Below are positions 4,205-19,499 of a DNA stretch of 64,000 bases, piece by piece. The position numbers were made by a program, and so were the translations under genes. The stretch spans positions 32,001 to 96,000 of the IMG/VR virus record IMGVR_UViG_3300035696_000017. One strand, written 5' to 3'. The first letter of the stretch is position 1, and each line of letters begins with the position of its first letter. The DNA is from a virus. Below the pieces are notes generated by a model. That model searched no databases. It was not told the DNA's origin and saw only the letters and a list, made by a program, of their open reading frames with translations.

Positions 4205-4630
4205 TCAACCCTCTTCCTTCTTACACTCCTCTCGGACCTCCATCAGGATCCGGCCCAGCCAGTTGCTGCCCCGGCCCCGGCAGACGCCCCAGAACGTGTC
4301 GTTCCAGGTGTTGCCCTCGACCAGCTTGGCGTCCTCGGTGGCGATGAGCATCGCCCGGAGGATCGGGTTCTTGAACTTCTCCCGCACGAACTTGCGCATC
4401 AGGTCGACCTTGACCTCGTCCCAGTCGGGACGGAGCTGGACGGCCTTGCCCAGCTTCTTGGCCTCGCCGGGGCGAGCGACCTCCCGGATCAGCTTCCGGG
4501 TCGCGGGGTCCAACGTCTTGGCGGCCTGGTAGGCGTGCTCGACTGAAGGGTACCGCTCTCCATCGATCCAGATCGACGCTTCGTGGAAGTTGCTCAGGAA
4601 GCCGAAGTCGCCCCGGAAGCTGTCAATCAC
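4205..4630 (-). CDS. NADAR (YbiA-like) family protein
   Basis: FLSNFH, YPSVEHAYQAAK, PGEAKKLGK, LVEGNTWNDTFWG, GSNWLGRILMEVR; GTG start at 4630 overlapping the upstream stop. Confidence 0.92.
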   Translation of the reverse strand: MIDSFRGDFGFLSNFHEASIWIDGERYPSVEHAYQAAKTLDPATRKLIREVARPGEAKKLGKAVQLRPDWDEVKVDLMRKFVREKFKNPILRAMLIATEDAKLVEGNTWNDTFWGVCRGRGSNWLGRILMEVREECKKEEG

Positions 4631-5294
4631 CGTCTCGGTCTGCGACGGGGACCCAGGAAGCGTCGGGAGCTGGGGTTGTTGTAGTTCCGTCAGCTTCGAT
4701 AGAACGTCGGATGGCTGCAAGGAGTTCTTCTTCTCGTTGTCGTTGCTCAAGTTGGTCCTCCGGGATGAGCTTGGTGATCGCCTCGGAGTAGCAGCGACTG
4801 AAGCCGGGTGCGTACTCGTCGAGACTCGCCTCGAAGTAGTTGCAGCGCTTCAGCCTGATCGCTGTCTCGTGTGGGTTGCCCCATTCGAACGAGGCCAGCG
4901 CTGGCTGGCAACGCTTGATGACTTCCCAGTAGGCAGCAGCACCGTCCTCGAAGTCGAAGAAGGCCCGGTACCAGTGCTTGTCGCCCCTGTTGAAGTAGAT
5001 GAGCTGCCCCTGTGCTGAGGCCCCGACGTTGCCGAGGTTGTGGTTGAAGGACCACTTGCCCCCGCCGTTCTCGAAGGCGACCTGGCCCCACGCCATCGCA
5101 AGCCTGCGATCGCTGGGGTACTTGCCGAAGACCTTGAGGTGACCCTCCCGTAGAGCGTGGAGCAGCTCCATCCGGGAGAGCGGAGTGCGCACAGTCGGGA
5201 CGTGTTCCGACGGGTCCGCCGAAGCGAGGGGCGCTGCGGTGGCGATGACGAGGATGAGGATGAACAACGTTGCCAGTCTCTTCGCTGGTGACAT
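4623..5294 (-). CDS. secreted glucosaminidase/lysozyme-like cell wall hydrolase
   Basis: Signal peptide; GQVAFENG (catalytic E), HNLGNV, YRAFFDFEDGAAAYW, LKRCNYF resemble FlgJ/GH73-type folds. Confidence 0.6.
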   Translation of the reverse strand: MSPAKRLATLFILILVIATAAPLASADPSEHVPTVRTPLSRMELLHALREGHLKVFGKYPSDRRLAMAWGQVAFENGGGKWSFNHNLGNVGASAQGQLIYFNRGDKHWYRAFFDFEDGAAAYWEVIKRCQPALASFEWGNPHETAIRLKRCNYFEASLDEYAPGFSRCYSEAITKLIPEDQLEQRQREEELLAAIRRSIEADGTTTTPAPDASWVPVADRDGD

Positions 5295-5347: not shown

Positions 5348-5893
5348 TCAGGCATCAGGTGCCTTTGGTGGAGTCTCGCCGCCTTGTGGGGACGAACTAT
5401 TTGCACCATCTGACGAGGTGCAGAGCTTCCAGGGCACCCCTGCCTTGACCACGCGGTCGAGCATGTCAGCCGTCCCGCGCGAGTCTTGGATGTTGTTGTG
5501 GAAGGCAAGGCACAGGTCGATGGGCTCTTCGGGCTTGTTCTCCACATCCAACATCTGTTGGTTGCGGATCGGACCCGCGGCTTTCTTGTGCTTCACCCAG
5601 TCGGCCGGGTAGGGCCTGACCTCAAACCGCAACGCTTCAGCGACTGCGGCGCAGATGATGTCTGCACCCCTGCACGCTCCGTGCACGAGTATGGTGCCAG
5701 GCCTATAACCCTTCAACTCTTCGACGACCCGAGTGATGTCTGACCACTCGCGGTCACCGGTGACCAGGATCTTGTGGACGTACTTCTCCGCGGGCAGCTT
5801 CCGGCGTTCTTCCGGATCGCGTTGCGTGTAGTAGCGCCGGTCAGATTTGGTCCGCCTGATGTCGCCCGTTCGTCGCCGTGGTTCGTCTGCCAT
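5348..5893 (-). CDS. SLOG-family (DUF2493/YspA-like) protein
   Basis: ILVTGDREW, LVHGACRGAD, ADWVKHKKAAGPIRNQQML, SRGTADM. Confidence 0.85.
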   Translation of the reverse strand: MADEPRRRTGDIRRTKSDRRYYTQRDPEERRKLPAEKYVHKILVTGDREWSDITRVVEELKGYRPGTILVHGACRGADIICAAVAEALRFEVRPYPADWVKHKKAAGPIRNQQMLDVENKPEEPIDLCLAFHNNIQDSRGTADMLDRVVKAGVPWKLCTSSDGANSSSPQGGETPPKAPDA

Positions 5894-6565
5894 CAGTCCC
5901 AGTCACCATTGTACCACCTCGACAGCCGGCTTTTTACACCCGTCCGGTGATCGGTGACCTGGTCGTCTTGCGTACGATACGTCCGCACCTTGTCGCCTCG
6001 TTGGCCGGTGCCGACCTGCTGCTTGCGTTCAGCTTCCTTTGCAAGACGCTGGCGTTCACGTTCGGCATCGTACAGCCTGGCCGCCATGACCTTCATAGCC
6101 AGGGCCTTGTTCTGGCTCTGGCTCCGCTCGTTGTCGATGCGGACCTGCAACCCCGTCGCCTTGTGGGTGACGATGACGCAGGACTCGGTCTTGTTGCGGT
6201 TCTGCCCGCCGGGACCCGAGCCCCGTGCGGTGGCGATGTCAACGTCCTGGTACGTCAGCTGCTTGCCGACGACGGTGTCAGGATCGAAGACGGCGACAGT
6301 CACCGTTGACGTCTGGACCCGTCCCCGCTTCTCAGTGGGAGGGATCCGCTGCCATCGGTGACCACCGCTCTCGTGCTGGAATGTCTGCTTGGCGCCCGTG
6401 CCTGAGAAGGCGACGGTGACCATGCCCGGTCGCTCGTCGATCAGCTCAGACTCAAAGACCCCTCCGCGACGCCACGTTGGCGTACGCACGGAGCTGTTCC
6501 TTGACCAGCAGCTTTGCGTCGTCGCCGCCCTCGGCGGCTCGGATCTCGATGATGACCGTTTCCAT
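5893..6565 (-). CDS. class I peptide chain release factor lacking domain 1, expressed via +1 programmed frameshift at 6457-6452 (about 223 aa)
   Basis: Frame 0 from ATG 6565: METVIIEIRAAEGGDDAKLL..RRGL-TGA; +1 frame continues ESELIDERPG..HRWQRIPPTEKRGRVQTS..SGPGGQNRNK..RSQSQNK..VRTY..VTDHR. Confidence 0.9.
6451..6466 (-). promoter_or_regulatory. RF2-type +1 frameshift cassette (internal SD GGAGG, 3-nt spacer, CTT TGA)
   Basis: Minus strand CGGAGG GGT CTT TGA G; same layout as bacterial prfB (AGGGGG TAT CTT TGA C). Confidence 0.88.
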
Positions 6566-7982: not shown

Positions 7983-7988
7983 GTCGAG

Positions 7989-8339
7989 GTGGAGGACCGG
8001 TAAGCCGGGTTCTGTCGTTGGACGATCATTCCTCTGGGATGCGTGTTACCACGCACCTCAAGCAGCAACCCGGAAGCATCGGCCGAGCAGACCTCAAACG
8101 CTTCCTGTTTGCCTTGCTACGGATGGGGTTTGCCACAAGGGACTGTCACCAGCCCTGTCGGGGTCTCTTACACCTCGGTTTCGCCCTTACCTGAGCGAGG
8201 GGCGAACCCCAAGCCATCGGCGGTCTGTTTTCTGTTGCACTGTTCCGTCGCGTTACCGCGCCTGGCCGTTAGCCAGCATCCTGCTCTGTGTAGCCCGGAC
8301 TTTCCTCTGCATGGGTGCAGCGATCGTCTGGTCTTCCAC
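7989..8339 (-). ncRNA. rnpB: RNase P RNA, bacterial A-type
   Basis: Conserved GAGGAAAGTCCGGGC, AGTGCAACAGAAA and AACAGAACCCGGCTTA segments; P1 helix GTGGAAGACC/GGTCCTCCAC. Confidence 0.95.
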
Positions 8340-8430: not shown

Positions 8431-8793
8431 TTACGTTATGTCTACGGCGACCTTCATCGCCTTTCCTCGAACCAGCTGGATCTTGTTGATGAAGACCAGG
8501 GTGTTGATAACCCCGACGTCACCCATCGGCCAACGCTGCATCTCGTTCTGCAGCTTCTCCGACATCTTCTCGCTGAGACCGGTCTCGCCCTGGGGACCGT
8601 CGACGACGACAGCAACGTCGATGTCGCTGCCCTCGTGGAACTGGGTCCTGTCGAGGACGCTGCCCACAACGTAGACCTCCCGGCATGGGACGCCGAGGAC
8701 GTCAGTCGCAGTGTTCCGGATGAAGCCAGCGTTCTGCTTCACCGTCTCGATGGCTTCCTTGCGGTACTCCTCAAGCTCCGGGTTGCTGCTCAT
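8431..8793 (-). CDS. minimal nucleotidyltransferase (Pol-beta superfamily)
   Basis: VYVVGSV..GSDIDVAVVV (hGS..DhD motif). Confidence 0.8.
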   Translation of the reverse strand: MSSNPELEEYRKEAIETVKQNAGFIRNTATDVLGVPCREVYVVGSVLDRTQFHEGSDIDVAVVVDGPQGETGLSEKMSEKLQNEMQRWPMGDVGVINTLVFINKIQLVRGKAMKVAVDIT

Positions 8794-10699: not shown

Positions 10700-10701
10700 A
10701 G

Positions 10702-10773
10702 TCAGAGAGGTGGGACTCGAACCCACGGCTTCCTGGCTCCGGACCAGGCTGTCTGCCGCTGACTTACTCTCTG
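10702..10773 (-). tRNA. tRNA-Pro(CGG), C33
   Basis: C1-G72, A73, loop TCCGGAG. Confidence 0.85.
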
Positions 10774-10847
10774 GAGCTGGCGATGGGAGTCGAACCCACG
10801 TGTTCCTCTTTACGGGAGAGGTGCACCTGCCTCTGTGCTACACCAGC
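10772..10847 (-). tRNA. tRNA-Thr(CGT), C33
   Basis: Loop CCCGTAA; its CCA overlaps the next tRNA by 2 nt. Confidence 0.88.
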
Positions 10848-10857
10848 ATACGTTTCG

Positions 10858-10931
10858 TCGGTGTGGTGGGATTTGGACCCACGATCTTCTGCTCCCGAAG
10901 CAGACGCGATACCAGGCTTCGCTACACACCG
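10858..10931 (-). tRNA. tRNA-Pro(CGG), C55
   Basis: Loop TTCGGGA; T loop TCCAAAT. Confidence 0.9.
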
Positions 10932-10935
10932 AAGT

Positions 10936-11248
10936 CATCGACCGTCCAACCGTCCCGGTGAGGATGTCACTCCTCACACCTACCTCGTGTCAGTCACGTT
11001 GTTCCGTCACATGGCTCAGATGCTAGCTAGGCACCCTCAACACCACGGCGGGATTTTACCCGCATGCACCCAAGCTCTGACCGTTAGTAGGTCGGTGCAC
11101 CATCCCGCTGCCGAGTAGGAAACTGCCTGATCGGTGCGCTAATGACGTTACGCTTCCACACGCATCGGACCTGACCAGTTTCCGGTGCCAGTGCCTTTCC
11201 CCGAGCAAGGGATGGGCTTTCAGCCACGTGACGGTCGGACGGTCGATG
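10936..11248 (-). ncRNA. 313-nt structured RNA, possibly raiA-motif-like
   Basis: 19-bp closing helix (10936-10954 with 11230-11248), several internal hairpins, GTGGCTGAAAGCC start, CATCCC/GGGATG long-range pairing. Confidence 0.65.
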
Positions 11249-11323
11249 GTCGGAGTGGCGGGGTTCGAACCCACGATCTCTCGGCCCCCAGCCGAGCGCG
11301 ATACCAGACTTCGCTACACTCCG
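11247..11323 (-). tRNA. tRNA-Pro(GGG)
   Basis: Loop CTGGGGG, CCA. Confidence 0.93.
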
Positions 11324-11482
11324 ATGAATTGCTACTGTACTACACCTTCTTGCGATTTGGACAACCGTGCGTTTCACGGTCTCCACCTCAGTTGGCGTCA
11401 GCTAACACCCGTGAGGGAGAGCCGCTCAAGACGCGCCGTCCGGTATCCCGTTAGGACATCGTCAAACCTGAGGAACGCAGAG

Positions 11483-11555
11483 TCGAAATGGTGGGACTCG
11501 AACCCACGATCTTCTCCGTGTGAAGGAGTTGTTCTTGCCGCTGAACTACATTCCG
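11483..11555 (-). tRNA. tRNA-Val(CAC)
   Basis: Loop TTCACAC. Confidence 0.88.
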
Positions 11556-11582
11556 AAGACTTGAAAGCCTCCTTGGCTTCCG

Positions 11583-11656
11583 TCGGAGTGGAGGGACTCG
11601 AACCCTCGGAAAACGTGCACCCAAAGCACGCGCCATGGCCGCTAGGCGACACTCCG
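11583..11656 (-). tRNA. tRNA-Pro(TGG)
   Basis: Loop TTTGGGT. Confidence 0.9.
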
Positions 11657-11846
11657 ATTCTGCTTGTCTTCTGCCGGTTGTCTCTGCCGGCTGGCCGTTC
11701 AACCCCTATGGGGTGTGGCAATCGAAGCGGCAGCACGCCCGAGGTGGACGTGAGGCCGCCGACGCAAAAGCGCCGTCCTTCACTCCTACCTGTTAGCATG
11801 CTCGACATCATGACTGATCTCGCTTCAATTCGGGCAGTTGCCCTAG

Positions 11847-18638: not shown

Positions 18639-19499
18639 TCATGTCTCCTGCAACGCCTTGACAAACCGCTGCTTGAACAGCTTCGCTGCTCGAGCCCCGA
18701 TCGCCTTGCGTGCCTCCTTGGAGTCGATGATCTCGCCAGCACCCTCGCGGGTGACGTCTTCGACCATCGCGGCGATGACCTTGCCCGTGTCGGTGATGGT
18801 CGCCCCAGGCAGCTTGTCGAGGACATGGTCGAGCCGGGTCTCGGTGACCCACTCGAGAGCGATGGCCTCAGCCTCCTGCAGCACCTGCAGCTTGGCCGGG
18901 TCATCGACCTTGCGAGCCGTTGCGGTCTCCCGTTCGACGTCCCTCTTGTGCTTGCTGATGACGCGGTCAACACCGTTGGTACGGAACTCCATCAGGGGAC
19001 GGAGGACCACACCCTCACGGGGCTGGTCGCCCTCGACGCCGTTCTTGCGAGCCTGCTCGCTGGGTGCATCGCGCTCTGCGTTCAGGGCTTCGATCTCGGC
19101 GGGAACCTTCTTCCAATGGACGAAGTCGAGGCCGAGCCGGCGGGCGACCTGGTCAGCGTTGGGGACGTCGAGCCAGTAGTCACCAATCTTGACGTCGAAC
19201 GCAACGAAGCGCAGCTGCTTGCCGTAGCGCCAGGCCTGCTGTTGCTGCTTGCCACCGTAGGCCTCACCGAAGATGACGACTTCCGTGTGACCAAGGTCGT
19301 TCATGCCCTTGGCCAGGGCCTCGGCGTCGAACAGCTTGACGAAGTTGTCGTGCGACTCACCGCCCGAGTTGAAGTGGAGCTGCCCGTCCTTCCAGGAGAT
19401 GTGTGCCGACGTGCCGTGGATCTTCTCCATGGCGTAGCACTCCCGGAACATCAGGATGGTCTGGTTCTTGTAGAGATTGTCGATGTGCAGGTAGCCCAT
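18639..19499 (-). CDS. RNA ligase (Rnl2-like nucleotidyltransferase domain)
   Basis: Motif I EKIHGTS, III FGEAYG, IIIa FVAFDV, IV EGVVLRP, V ISKHK. Confidence 0.85.
   Translation of the reverse strand: MGYLHIDNLYKNQTILMFRECYAMEKIHGTSAHISWKDGQLHFNSGGESHDNFVKLFDAEALAKGMNDLGHTEVVIFGEAYGGKQQQQAWRYGKQLRFVAFDVKIGDYWLDVPNADQVARRLGLDFVHWKKVPAEIEALNAERDAPSEQARKNGVEGDQPREGVVLRPLMEFRTNGVDRVISKHKRDVERETATARKVDDPAKLQVLQEAEAIALEWVTETRLDHVLDKLPGATITDTGKVIAAMVEDVTREGAGEIIDSKEARKAIGARAAKLFKQRFVKALQET

What the first reader, a model, noticed from the sequence alone, without database searches (positions are those of the whole stretch)
10936..11248. 313-nt structured ncRNA between two tRNA-Pro genes, resembling a divergent raiA-motif RNA
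Seen: a 19-bp terminal helix (CATCGACCGTCCGACCGTC paired with GACGGTTGGACGGTCGATG) encloses several hairpins (CTGGTC/GATCAG, GTGCACC/GGTGCAT, GCGGG-TAAAAT-CCCGC, GTGAGGA/TCCTCAC) and a possible pseudoknot CATCCC/GGGATG. There is no credible ORF. Inference from memory: the segments GTGGCTGAAAGCCCATCCC, GGATGGTGC, TCCCGCCG and AGGTAGGTGTGAGG follow the order of conserved blocks in the raiA motif RNA, which is known from Bacillota/Actinomycetota and has no known function. A copy in a phage tRNA operon would be notable; otherwise this is a new large RNA class.
Basis: partly seen in the sequence, partly recalled or inferred. Interest (0 to 1): 0.85.

Follow-up and report, generated by a model that had tools for sequence, protein, structure and literature searches.

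The report
New folded RNA in phage tRNA array
A huge soil and peat phage carries, between two proline tRNA genes, a gene for a roughly 311-base knotted non-coding RNA of no catalogued family; it is not a raiA RNA, matching mutations in related phages preserve its fold, it turns up on its own in environmental RNA samples, and its job is unknown.

Summary
Window 10932-11248, minus strand (the tRNA strand), folds far better than shuffles (z -5.3). No reading frame stays open across all four phage copies.

The raiA reading fails. No Rfam 15 family, including raiA, GOLLD, ROOL, SRP, RNase P, 6S and tmRNA, matches this copy or its three homologues.

Homologues (78-92% identical, almost no indels) lie at the same site, after tRNA-Pro(GGG), in three related phage contigs; one is a complete 369-kb genome. 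More distant relatives with the same tRNA order lack the RNA.

Across the four sequences, 98% of modelled base-pair cells pair and 18 pairs changed on both sides. Registers slid by 1-3 columns give 0-2. The changes support a terminal clamp helix, seven further helices and one long pseudoknot.

Contigs from three metatranscriptome studies cover only this RNA, not its flanks.

Best reading: a new family of stable RNA, cut out of the tRNA precursor by tRNA-processing enzymes and acting in trans. Its function is unknown. The nearest analogues by behaviour are GOLLD, ROOL and the phage T4 stable RNAs.

The scan noted this stretch before only in an overlapping window of the same genome, not on other DNA.

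The parts
10932..11248 (-). The ncRNA gene (about 311 nt between the CCA of the upstream tRNA and the 5' end of the downstream tRNA)
   Evidence: Fold z -5.3. Three homologues 78-92% identical at the same site. Covariation. RNA-run contigs covering only this stretch.
11230..11247 (-). P1, 5' strand of the terminal clamp helix. Its first base is the A of the upstream tRNA's CCA.
   Evidence: Pairs with 10937-10954. The outer 11 bp pair in all four sequences, with one G-C to C-G swap in G002. The inner 7 bp are imperfect in G001 and G002 (helix 1).
10937..10954 (-). P1, 3' strand. Four to five unpaired nt (10932-10936) follow, then tRNA-Pro(CGG) begins.
   Evidence: DNA run X3 carries three variants here; two of them keep pairing.
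11186..11226 (-). 5' domain: invariant unpaired blocks UGGCUGAAAGC (11216-11226) and AAGGCACUGGCA (11186-11197), flanking a small invariant hairpin (11198-11212)
   Evidence: Identical in all four homologues. No complementary target in the window.
11168..11183 (-). Pseudoknot helix X, 5' strand
   Evidence: Pairs with 11118-11132. Three pairs changed on both sides; two are events specific to G002 (helix 3).
11118..11132 (-). Pseudoknot helix X, 3' strand. It lies inside the loop closed by helices A, C and B.
   Evidence: helix 3.
11141..11162 (-). 5' strands of long-range helices A (11150-11162), C (11144-11147) and B (11141-11143)
   Evidence: A pairs with 10986-10999 (four doubly changed pairs, one specific to L064). 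C pairs with 11005-11008 (invariant). B pairs with 11102-11104 (two doubly changed pairs, one specific to G002). helices 4-6.
10986..11008 (-). 3' strands of helices C (11005-11008) and A (10986-10999)
11064..11104 (-). 3' strand of helix B (11102-11104), then P5 (11094-11100 with 11064-11070), whose apical hairpin varies in length and sequence
   Evidence: Two compensated pairs in P5 (helix 7). The apical hairpin changes sequence but stays a hairpin. RNA run X5 carries paired changes at 11084 and 11089.
11048..11063 (-). P6 hairpin (5 bp, 6-nt A-rich loop)
   Evidence: One compensated pair in L064 (helix 8).
11010..11047 (-). P7 extended hairpin with an invariant 7-nt loop CUAGCUA (11024-11030) that contains the self-complementary UAGCUA
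   Evidence: Five compensated pairs in the two stem segments while the loop never changes (helices 9-10). RNA runs X9 and X10 add a further pair-keeping stem variant.
10958..10977 (-). P9 hairpin (7 bp)
   Evidence: Pairs in all four sequences, with two one-sided pair-keeping changes (helix 11).
11247..11323 (-). Upstream tRNA-Pro(GGG) with an encoded CCA. Its 3' maturation sets the ncRNA's 5' end.
10857..10931 (-). Downstream tRNA-Pro(CGG). An RNase P cut at its 5' end would set the ncRNA's 3' end.
7985..8339 (-). Phage-encoded class A RNase P RNA in the same array, itself flanked directly by tRNAs. Context for processing.
   Evidence: 276.6 bits, E 3e-89.

Best explanation
This is the gene for a previously uncatalogued stable, complex-folded non-coding RNA. 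It is carried by a narrow clade of roughly 370-kb phages from peat, moss and soil.

What the data show:
- It lies on the tRNA strand, in single copy.
- It is as conserved as, or more conserved than, its flanking tRNAs.
- Its fold is kept by compensating mutations: a terminal clamp helix, a multi-branched core and one long pseudoknot.
- RNA-library contigs contain it without its flanks.

Inferred from position and known enzymology:
- No own promoter or terminator was found, so it is probably transcribed as part of the tRNA polycistron.
- tRNA-processing enzymes would release it. Maturation of the upstream tRNA-Pro(GGG) 3' end would make its 5' end. RNase P, cutting 4-5 nt after the clamp helix at the downstream tRNA, would make its 3' end. 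The phage's own RNase P RNA lies 2.6 kb further along the array.
- The clamp helix would then protect both ends.

Speculative: the free RNA acts in trans during infection as a structured scaffold or decoy within the phage's tRNA and translation take-over programme. It would bind a partner through its invariant unpaired blocks and possibly pair with a second copy through the invariant self-complementary loop UAGCUA.
For: Folding: z -5.3 on the minus strand. 50 of 352 modelled pair cells are G.U, so the minus strand is the one that pairs.

Homologues: three at the same site after tRNA-Pro(GGG), 78-92% identical, each 311 nt. The flanking tRNAs are 60-91% identical; the neighbouring Val-Pro spacer is 57-71% identical with many indels.

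Covariation: 98% of cells pair, and 18 pairs changed on both sides against 0-2 in slid registers; 0 of 500 shuffles reach the observed values for four of five measures (60 of 500 for further pair types). Between the window and G002, 33 columns differ; 16 of them form 8 compensated pairs and only 2 pairs are lost.

Copy number: one per genome, including the complete 369-kb relative.

Transcription signals: no promoter-like or terminator-like site for it.

Expression: contigs of three metatranscriptome studies cover only the RNA (X5 10952-11222, 99% identical; X9 11024-11248; X10 11024-11228). The DNA run X3 covers the flanks as well.

Context: an RNase P RNA embedded between tRNAs in the same way in the same array.
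Against: - Only four sequences, falling into two sequence groups, underlie the structure, and the model was derived from them. The pseudoknot and some alternative registers are therefore not settled; columns 92-94 and 110-112 of alignment A4 also fit local hairpins.
- The RNA evidence comes from assembled contigs. They cannot show ends, strand or amount.
- In two homologues the 3' end is not next to a tRNA: a 121-nt spacer follows in L064 and a 255-aa ORF in G002. RNase P cannot be the general 3'-end maker.
- Related phages with the same tRNA order lack the RNA, so it is dispensable.
- Nothing here identifies a partner or an activity.
Confidence: 0.7

Rival explanations
1. A divergent raiA-motif RNA carried by a phage.
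For: Both RNAs are pseudoknotted and abundant.
Against: No raiA hit at E<=10 in a 421-nt search, in the whole phage and its complete relative, or in the three homologues. The length is 311 nt against about 200. raiA is defined by 51 highly conserved nucleotides, six major stems (P1-P6) and two pseudoknots, and is found with that covariance model (PMC10861870).
Confidence: 0.02
2. A purely cis-acting processing spacer. The clamp helix and fold would only present the two tRNAs to RNase P, RNase Z or RNase III, like the processing stems of rRNA operons, and the excised piece would be waste.
For: It is flanked directly by tRNAs, and P1 brings the 3' end of one tRNA next to the 5' end of the other. 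It has no promoter or terminator of its own. Relatives manage without it.
Against: - Waste spacers in the same array diverge fast and take indels (57-71% identical), whereas this stretch keeps its length.
- It keeps long invariant unpaired blocks and a pseudoknotted core.
- It is present without its flanks in RNA contigs from three studies.
- In G002 and L064 the downstream tRNA is not adjacent.
Confidence: 0.1
3. A miniature inverted-repeat mobile element (MITE-like insertion) whose terminal inverted repeats look like a helix.
For: 19-22-bp terminal inverted repeats, no ORF, and a clean presence/absence polymorphism exactly between two tRNA genes (filled in the window, empty in G004).
Against: - Single copy in the complete 369-kb genome and in the window's record.
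- Every copy found in the viral and metagenome scans sits at the same syntenic site.
- No target-site duplication is visible at the filled versus empty site.
- The interior shows helix-by-helix compensation and conserved loops rather than one long palindrome.
Confidence: 0.05
4. A very divergent copy of a housekeeping RNA (second RNase P RNA, SRP RNA, 6S, tmRNA or a Y RNA).
For: Huge phages carry translation-related RNAs, and this one has RNase P RNA. Short resemblances exist, such as GGUCAGGUCCG (SRP helix 8, recalled from memory) and GACGGAACA, which is shared with the phage's own RNase P RNA.
Against: - No hit to any of these families or clans at E<=10 or E<=5 for any of the four copies.
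- ARAGORN finds no tmRNA.
- The phage and its complete relative encode no SmpB, SRP54 or Ro/TROVE partner.
- The helix topology does not match these RNAs (my own comparison, not a computed test).
Confidence: 0.03

Closest known systems
ROOL and GOLLD RNAs (large ornate RNAs of phages and prophages)
   Same: They are encoded in phages, often near tRNA islands (PMC12286853), GOLLD also inside Mycobacterium tRNA arrays (cited there). They have complex pseudoknotted folds, high abundance, no known protein partner and unknown function. ROOL and GOLLD self-assemble through kissing loops and A-minor contacts; this RNA has an invariant self-complementary loop.
   Different: No match to either Rfam model. 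This RNA is about 311 nt; they are, from my own knowledge, roughly 500-800 nt. Multimer formation is untested here. The distribution is very narrow (four to five phage sequences from soil and peat).
Phage T4 stable RNAs species 1 and 2 (rnaC, rnaD) in the T4 tRNA cluster (from established knowledge, not tested here)
   Same: Non-tRNA stable RNAs encoded inside a phage tRNA cluster, made from the same precursor by tRNA-processing enzymes, function unknown.
   Different: The T4 RNAs are much smaller (about 120-140 nt) and simpler. No sequence or model comparison was possible with the tools here.
raiA motif RNA (Rfam RF03072)
   Same: A complex-folded, pseudoknotted, abundant bacterial-type ncRNA of unknown biochemical function.
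   Different: It fails the family model outright. Length and helix plan differ. raiA is chromosomal in Bacillota and Actinomycetota, not phage-borne (PMC10861870).
Bacterial class A RNase P RNA (the copy at 7985-8339 of this window)
   Same: It is embedded between tRNA genes in the same array, has a terminal helix formed by its 5' and 3' ends, and has a pseudoknotted core of similar size.
   Different: No match to any RNase P or MRP family. The universally conserved P4 sequences are not present (my inspection).

Membership tests
raiA motif RNA (RF03072) | Scores at or above the family covariance model's gathering score (101.3 bits) | tested here: not met
   No hit at E<=10 at the locus. No hit in the three homologues at E<=5.
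raiA motif RNA (RF03072) | About 200 nt, with six major stems (P1-P6), two pseudoknots and 51 highly conserved nucleotides (PMC10861870) | tested here: not met
   This RNA is 311 nt with a different helix plan. The conserved positions are what the failed covariance model encodes.
raiA motif RNA (RF03072) | Chromosomal gene of Bacillota or Actinomycetota | tested here: not met
   The record is a phage fragment. All homologues are phage contigs inside tRNA arrays.
GOLLD / ROOL | Match to the Rfam family models | tested here: not met
   All 4227 Rfam 15 families were scanned at E<=10 and E<=5, with no hit in any of the four copies.
GOLLD / ROOL | Location in phages or prophages next to tRNA islands | tested here: met
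   It lies between two tRNA genes in arrays totalling 48 tRNA genes in the window. This is a 'works like' feature, not sufficient for membership.
GOLLD / ROOL | RNA-only homo-oligomeric assembly | not testable with these tools
   Only a hint: the invariant palindromic loop UAGCUA at 11024-11029.
MITE-like mobile element | Multiple dispersed copies with terminal inverted repeats and target-site duplications | tested here: not met
   Inverted repeats are present. But there is one copy per genome, all copies are syntenic, and no duplication is visible at the filled versus empty site.
Housekeeping RNAs (RNase P, SRP, 6S, tmRNA, YrlA) | Match to the family or clan model, or presence of the cognate protein partner | tested here: not met
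   No Rfam hit. No tmRNA by ARAGORN. No TROVE, SmpB or SRP54 in the phage or its complete relative.
Stable RNAs processed out of phage tRNA operons (T4 rnaC/rnaD type) | Non-tRNA RNA co-transcribed with tRNAs and released by tRNA-processing nucleases | tested here: inconclusive
   The position, the lack of its own promoter or terminator and RNA contigs limited to the RNA all fit. Ends and co-transcription were not measured.

The most novel reading that the evidence does not exclude
The RNA is a new functional class with an activity of its own. It would be either an RNA-only quaternary assembly, as with ROOL and GOLLD, nucleated by the invariant palindromic loop, or a catalytic RNA acting on tRNAs. 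It may also exist as an end-joined (circular) molecule: one soil metatranscriptome contig joins the 3' strand of the clamp helix directly to the RNA's 5' start, in a way that would close the helix with a 3-nt loop. The phage also encodes an RNA ligase family protein 8 kb away.
Probability: 0.12. Interest if true: 0.85.

Novelty: new variant of a known kind. Interest (0 to 1): 0.6.

Why it matters
Large, intricately folded RNAs are rare, and almost every well-understood one does something fundamental. Phage tRNA islands are emerging as a place where such RNAs hide: GOLLD, ROOL and the never-explained T4 stable RNAs. This adds a compact (311-nt) family supported by covariation and seen in RNA libraries from three studies. 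It sits beside a phage-encoded RNase P RNA. Its size makes it tractable for chemical probing and cryo-EM, and its precise tRNA-RNA-tRNA layout makes processing directly testable in vitro. The weak points are the narrow distribution, the uncultured host and the lack of any functional clue.

Tried and rejected
- Rfam at permissive thresholds on all four copies: nothing. The dedicated raiA search found only 7-bit noise elsewhere.
- BLAST of the RNA against GenBank phages and PLSDB plasmids: no match.
- Covariance model R1 on more distant relatives (G003, G004, G006, G007, G008, G010, G013): no copy.
- Two genome-contig scans (protein family A3; an RNA pattern): nothing.
- A viral scan with a 3'-domain pattern gave two extra loci (L084, L086). 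Neither matches the model nor holds tRNAs, so they are chance hits.
- The metagenome pattern scan gave 39 loci, of which only three are real copies, one of them new.
The ENA and Logan contigs that encode homologues of the neighbouring 118-aa protein, which probably hold more copies, could not be fetched.
- Partner-protein checks in the phage and its complete relative: no TROVE/Ro, SmpB, SRP54 or RtcB.
- Search for a target complementary to the invariant block AAGGCACUGGCA in the window: only the gene itself.
- The 290-nt gap at the equivalent place in G007 is not a homologue; it holds decayed tRNA-like arms and folds no better than shuffles.
- The helix 15-27 with 233-245 from the two-sequence fold was set aside. 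It never varies, is broken once in G002, and overlaps the covarying outer stem of P7.

Full report
**What is there**

The window is part of a 114-kb IMG/VR phage record estimated to be 31% complete. It carries 48 tRNA genes, all on the minus strand, and a full class A RNase P RNA wedged between two of them (276.6 bits).

The flagged stretch lies on the same strand, between tRNA-Pro(GGG) (11247-11323) and tRNA-Pro(CGG) (10857-10931). Read on the minus strand, the discriminator base of the upstream tRNA is followed by CCA. The A of that CCA is already the first base of the terminal helix. After the helix's 3' strand come four to five unpaired bases, and then the downstream tRNA begins.

The stretch folds to -147.4 kcal/mol, with z -5.32 and no shuffle as good. 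The opposite strand reaches only -128.9 kcal/mol. Every reading frame has stops in at least three of the four copies described below.

**Not raiA, and not any catalogued family**

- cmscan against all 4227 Rfam 15 families at E<=10 on the 421-nt stretch returned only the two cut-off flanking tRNAs and three noise hits of 12-14 bits.
- A dedicated search with the raiA model (RF03072, gathering score 101.3 bits) over the phage record and its complete relative found nothing at the locus.
- The three homologues also hit nothing inside the RNA at E<=5.
- raiA RNAs are about 200 nt and are defined by six major stems, two pseudoknots and 51 highly conserved positions (PMC10861870).

**Homologues and distribution**

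An exact-word scan of IMG/VR found a complete relative of 369,475 bp with direct terminal repeats (G001). A DNA-ligase-based search found 13 loci on related contigs. A BLAST search of 12 of those records found the RNA in one further contig, G002. A two-block pattern scan of JGI metagenomes added one new contig (L064).

In all four the RNA follows tRNA-Pro(GGG), within the same order Glu-Pro-Val-Pro(GGG)-RNA-Pro(CGG)-Thr. In the window and in G001 the next tRNA follows within a few bases. In L064 a 121-nt spacer with a T-arm-like piece intervenes. In G002 a 255-aa ORF has been inserted.

There is one copy per genome. More distant relatives with the same tRNA order lack it:
- G004 has Pro(GGG) abutting Pro(CGG).
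- G008 lacks both Pro(GGG) and the RNA.
- The model finds nothing in G003, G006, G007, G010 or G013.

No copy turned up in GenBank phages, in plasmids or in a pattern scan of one genome per GTDB species. Sequencing runs that hold the stretch come from peat, moss and soil.

**Conservation**

The four copies are each 311 nt long and 78-92% identical. The flanking tRNAs are 60-91% identical. The neighbouring Val-Pro spacer is 57-71% identical, with lengths from 129 to 184 nt. Which copies are closest to each other differs between neighbouring segments, so these phages recombine within the array.

**Structure**

I combined RNAalifold output with an exhaustive list of helices that pair in all four sequences. 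I then scored the resulting model, pseudoknot included.

| Measure | Observed | Control |
|---|---|---|
| Cells forming a standard pair | 98% | 33-47% when the 3' partners are slid by 1-3 columns |
| Pairs changed on both sides | 18 | 0-2 when slid |
| Shuffles reaching the observed value | 0 of 500 for four of five measures (60 of 500 for the count of further pair types) | - |

Between the window and G002, 33 columns differ. Sixteen of them form eight compensated pairs, five more changes keep their pair, and two pairs are lost.

The supported elements are:
- **P1, the clamp helix.** The outer 11 bp are solid, with one G-C to C-G swap. The inner 7 bp are imperfect in two copies.
- **A small invariant hairpin** between two long invariant unpaired blocks in the 5' domain.
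- **Helix X** (11168-11183 with 11118-11132), with three compensated pairs.
- **Long-range helices A, C and B.** Together they close a junction holding P5, P6 and P7.
  - A has four compensated pairs.
  - C never varies.
  - B has two compensated pairs.
- **P5**, with two compensated pairs and an apical hairpin that changes sequence and length but stays a hairpin.
- **P6**, with one compensated pair.
- **P7, the extended hairpin**, with five compensated pairs.
- **P9**, which keeps all pairs with only one-sided changes.

Helix X crosses A, C and B, so the model is a long pseudoknot. Both sides of the crossing are backed by changes specific to single sequences (G002 for X and B, L064 for A).

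The caveats are real. There are only four sequences. The model was derived from them. A few columns (92-94 and 110-112 of alignment A4) also fit local hairpins.

Fifty of the 352 pair cells are G.U, which the opposite strand could not form.

**Expression**

Logan contigs from three RNA libraries of three studies were laid on 10700-11560.
- The moss metatranscriptome X5 has a 271-nt contig that lies entirely inside the RNA (10952-11222, two differences, depth 14.6).
- The soil libraries X9 and X10 have contigs over 11024-11248 and 11024-11228.
- None of the three covers the spacers. The tRNA flanks are touched only by short, divergent pieces that look like other organisms' tRNAs. The DNA run X3 covers the whole stretch.

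Contigs cannot show ends, strand or level. This is therefore a hint of a discrete, stable transcript, not proof.

The variants in these runs again respect the fold. X9 and X10 carry a third version of the P7 stem in which all pairs are kept. X5 carries a double change at 11084 and 11089 in the apical hairpin of P5.

**An unexplained junction**

The X9 contig runs 17 nt past the RNA's 5' start. Those 17 nt are the 3' strand of P1, carrying the same three variants as DNA run X3. They are not the reverse complement of the 5' strand, so this is not a snap-back artefact. An RNA-derived contig thus joins the 3' part of the RNA to its 5' start, skipping about 9 nt.

The possible readings are:
- reverse-transcriptase jumping between abundant copies, which would mark the mature ends;
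- a circular form, whose junction would close P1 with a 3-nt loop;
- tandem copies in that strain.

I could not lay reads a second time. The phage encodes an RNA-ligase-family protein at window 18951-19442 but no RtcB.

**How it most likely works**

The RNA has no promoter-like or terminator-like site of its own and is bracketed by tRNAs. It is therefore most likely excised from the tRNA precursor. tRNA 3'-end maturation upstream would create its 5' end. RNase P at the downstream tRNA, or tRNA-like piece, would create its 3' end. P1 would then shield both ends. The RNase P RNA in the same array is laid out the same way.

What the free RNA does is unknown. Four features argue for a trans-acting scaffold rather than a spacer:
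- long invariant unpaired blocks (UGGCUGAAAGC and AAGGCACUGGCA);
- an invariant loop on a freely covarying stem;
- a knotted core;
- presence without its flanks in RNA contigs.

The invariant loop CUAGCUA contains the self-complementary UAGCUA. Palindromic loops and kissing loops are the usual glue of natural RNA dimers and cages (PMC12286853, PMC12990946). A 6-nt palindrome in one of about six loops is not improbable by chance, though.

The phage and its complete relative lack Ro/TROVE, SmpB and SRP54. The neighbouring genes encode a NADAR domain protein, an RF1-type release factor, a small nucleotidyltransferase and an RNA ligase. This places the array in a translation, RNA-repair and counter-defence neighbourhood.

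**Comparison and novelty**

By behaviour, the closest known cases are:
- ROOL and GOLLD, which are phage-borne, sit next to tRNA islands, are ornate and abundant, and have no known function (PMC12286853);
- the two stable RNAs of the phage T4 tRNA cluster (established knowledge).

It is a member of none of these families. A MITE-like insertion is the most serious non-RNA-gene rival because of the inverted ends and the clean filled/empty polymorphism. However, the element is single-copy, always syntenic and without target duplication, and its interior evolves helix by helix.

Earlier notes of this scan describe several other uncatalogued folded RNAs in phage tRNA arrays. None shares sequence with this one.

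**Verdict**

This is a real, conserved non-coding RNA of a new family, seen in RNA libraries. The raiA link is rejected. The function is open.

Noticed in passing
window 7985-8339 (-): A complete class A RNase P RNA (276.6 bits) sits directly between tRNA-Arg(TCG) and tRNA-Leu(CAG) in the phage array. I did not look for an RnpA protein.
   Followed up: partly
window 11657-11845 (-): The 189-nt spacer between tRNA-Glu(CTC) and tRNA-Pro(TGG) is 73-90% identical among the four phages and folds with z -3.3. It may be a second conserved RNA element. The neighbouring Val-Pro spacer (11324-11481) is poorly conserved and folds with z -0.85.
   Followed up: partly
window 10945-10948 and 11248 (RNA run X9): An RNA-derived contig joins the 3' strand of the clamp helix to the RNA's 5' start. 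This could be template jumping, a circular form or tandem copies; it is unresolved.
   Followed up: partly
L021:1772-2539 (+) and L030:13960-14769 (+): A 255-269-aa ORF with an HE(V/L)EHS motif is inserted at different places in the tRNA arrays of G002 (right after the RNA, overlapping its 3' end as called) and G004. The arrays therefore trade protein-coding cassettes.
   Followed up: no
L030:14846-15568 (+): A 240-aa ORF with Cys pairs and an HNH-like motif lies between tRNA-Pro(CGG) and tRNA-Thr in G004. It is a likely homing endonuclease inside the array.
   Followed up: no
window 5893-6489 (-), 4205-4750 (-), 5348-5893 (-), 8431-8793 (-): Between the tRNA blocks lie an RF1-type release factor (PCRF and RF-1 domains), a NADAR domain protein, a YAcAr/SLOG protein and a 120-aa nucleotidyltransferase.
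   Followed up: partly
window 18951-19442 (-), inside ORF 18639-19499: A protein of the RNA ligase family (PF09414, 52 bits). The complete relative G001 has two such genes. No RtcB is present.
   Followed up: partly
L031:3320-3609 (-): At the equivalent place in relative G007, a 290-nt gap holds two T-arm-like sequences without full tRNAs (decayed or non-canonical tRNA-like pieces). It folds no better than shuffles (z -1.4).
   Followed up: partly
L064:3659-3779 (+): The 121-nt spacer after the RNA in L064 contains a T-arm-like GGTTCGAGTCC piece, so a tRNA-like processing signal may follow the RNA there too.
   Followed up: no
window 10857-11845 and syntenic loci: Which phages are closest differs from segment to segment. 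For the RNA, the window pairs with G002 and G001 with L064. For the Glu-Pro spacer, the window pairs with L064. For tRNA-Pro(CGG), G002 pairs with L064. This indicates recombination within the array.
   Followed up: partly
Viral-contig scan: The pattern scan returned G002 but not G001, although the G001 copy contains the pattern (alignment). Collection scans can therefore miss records.
   Followed up: no
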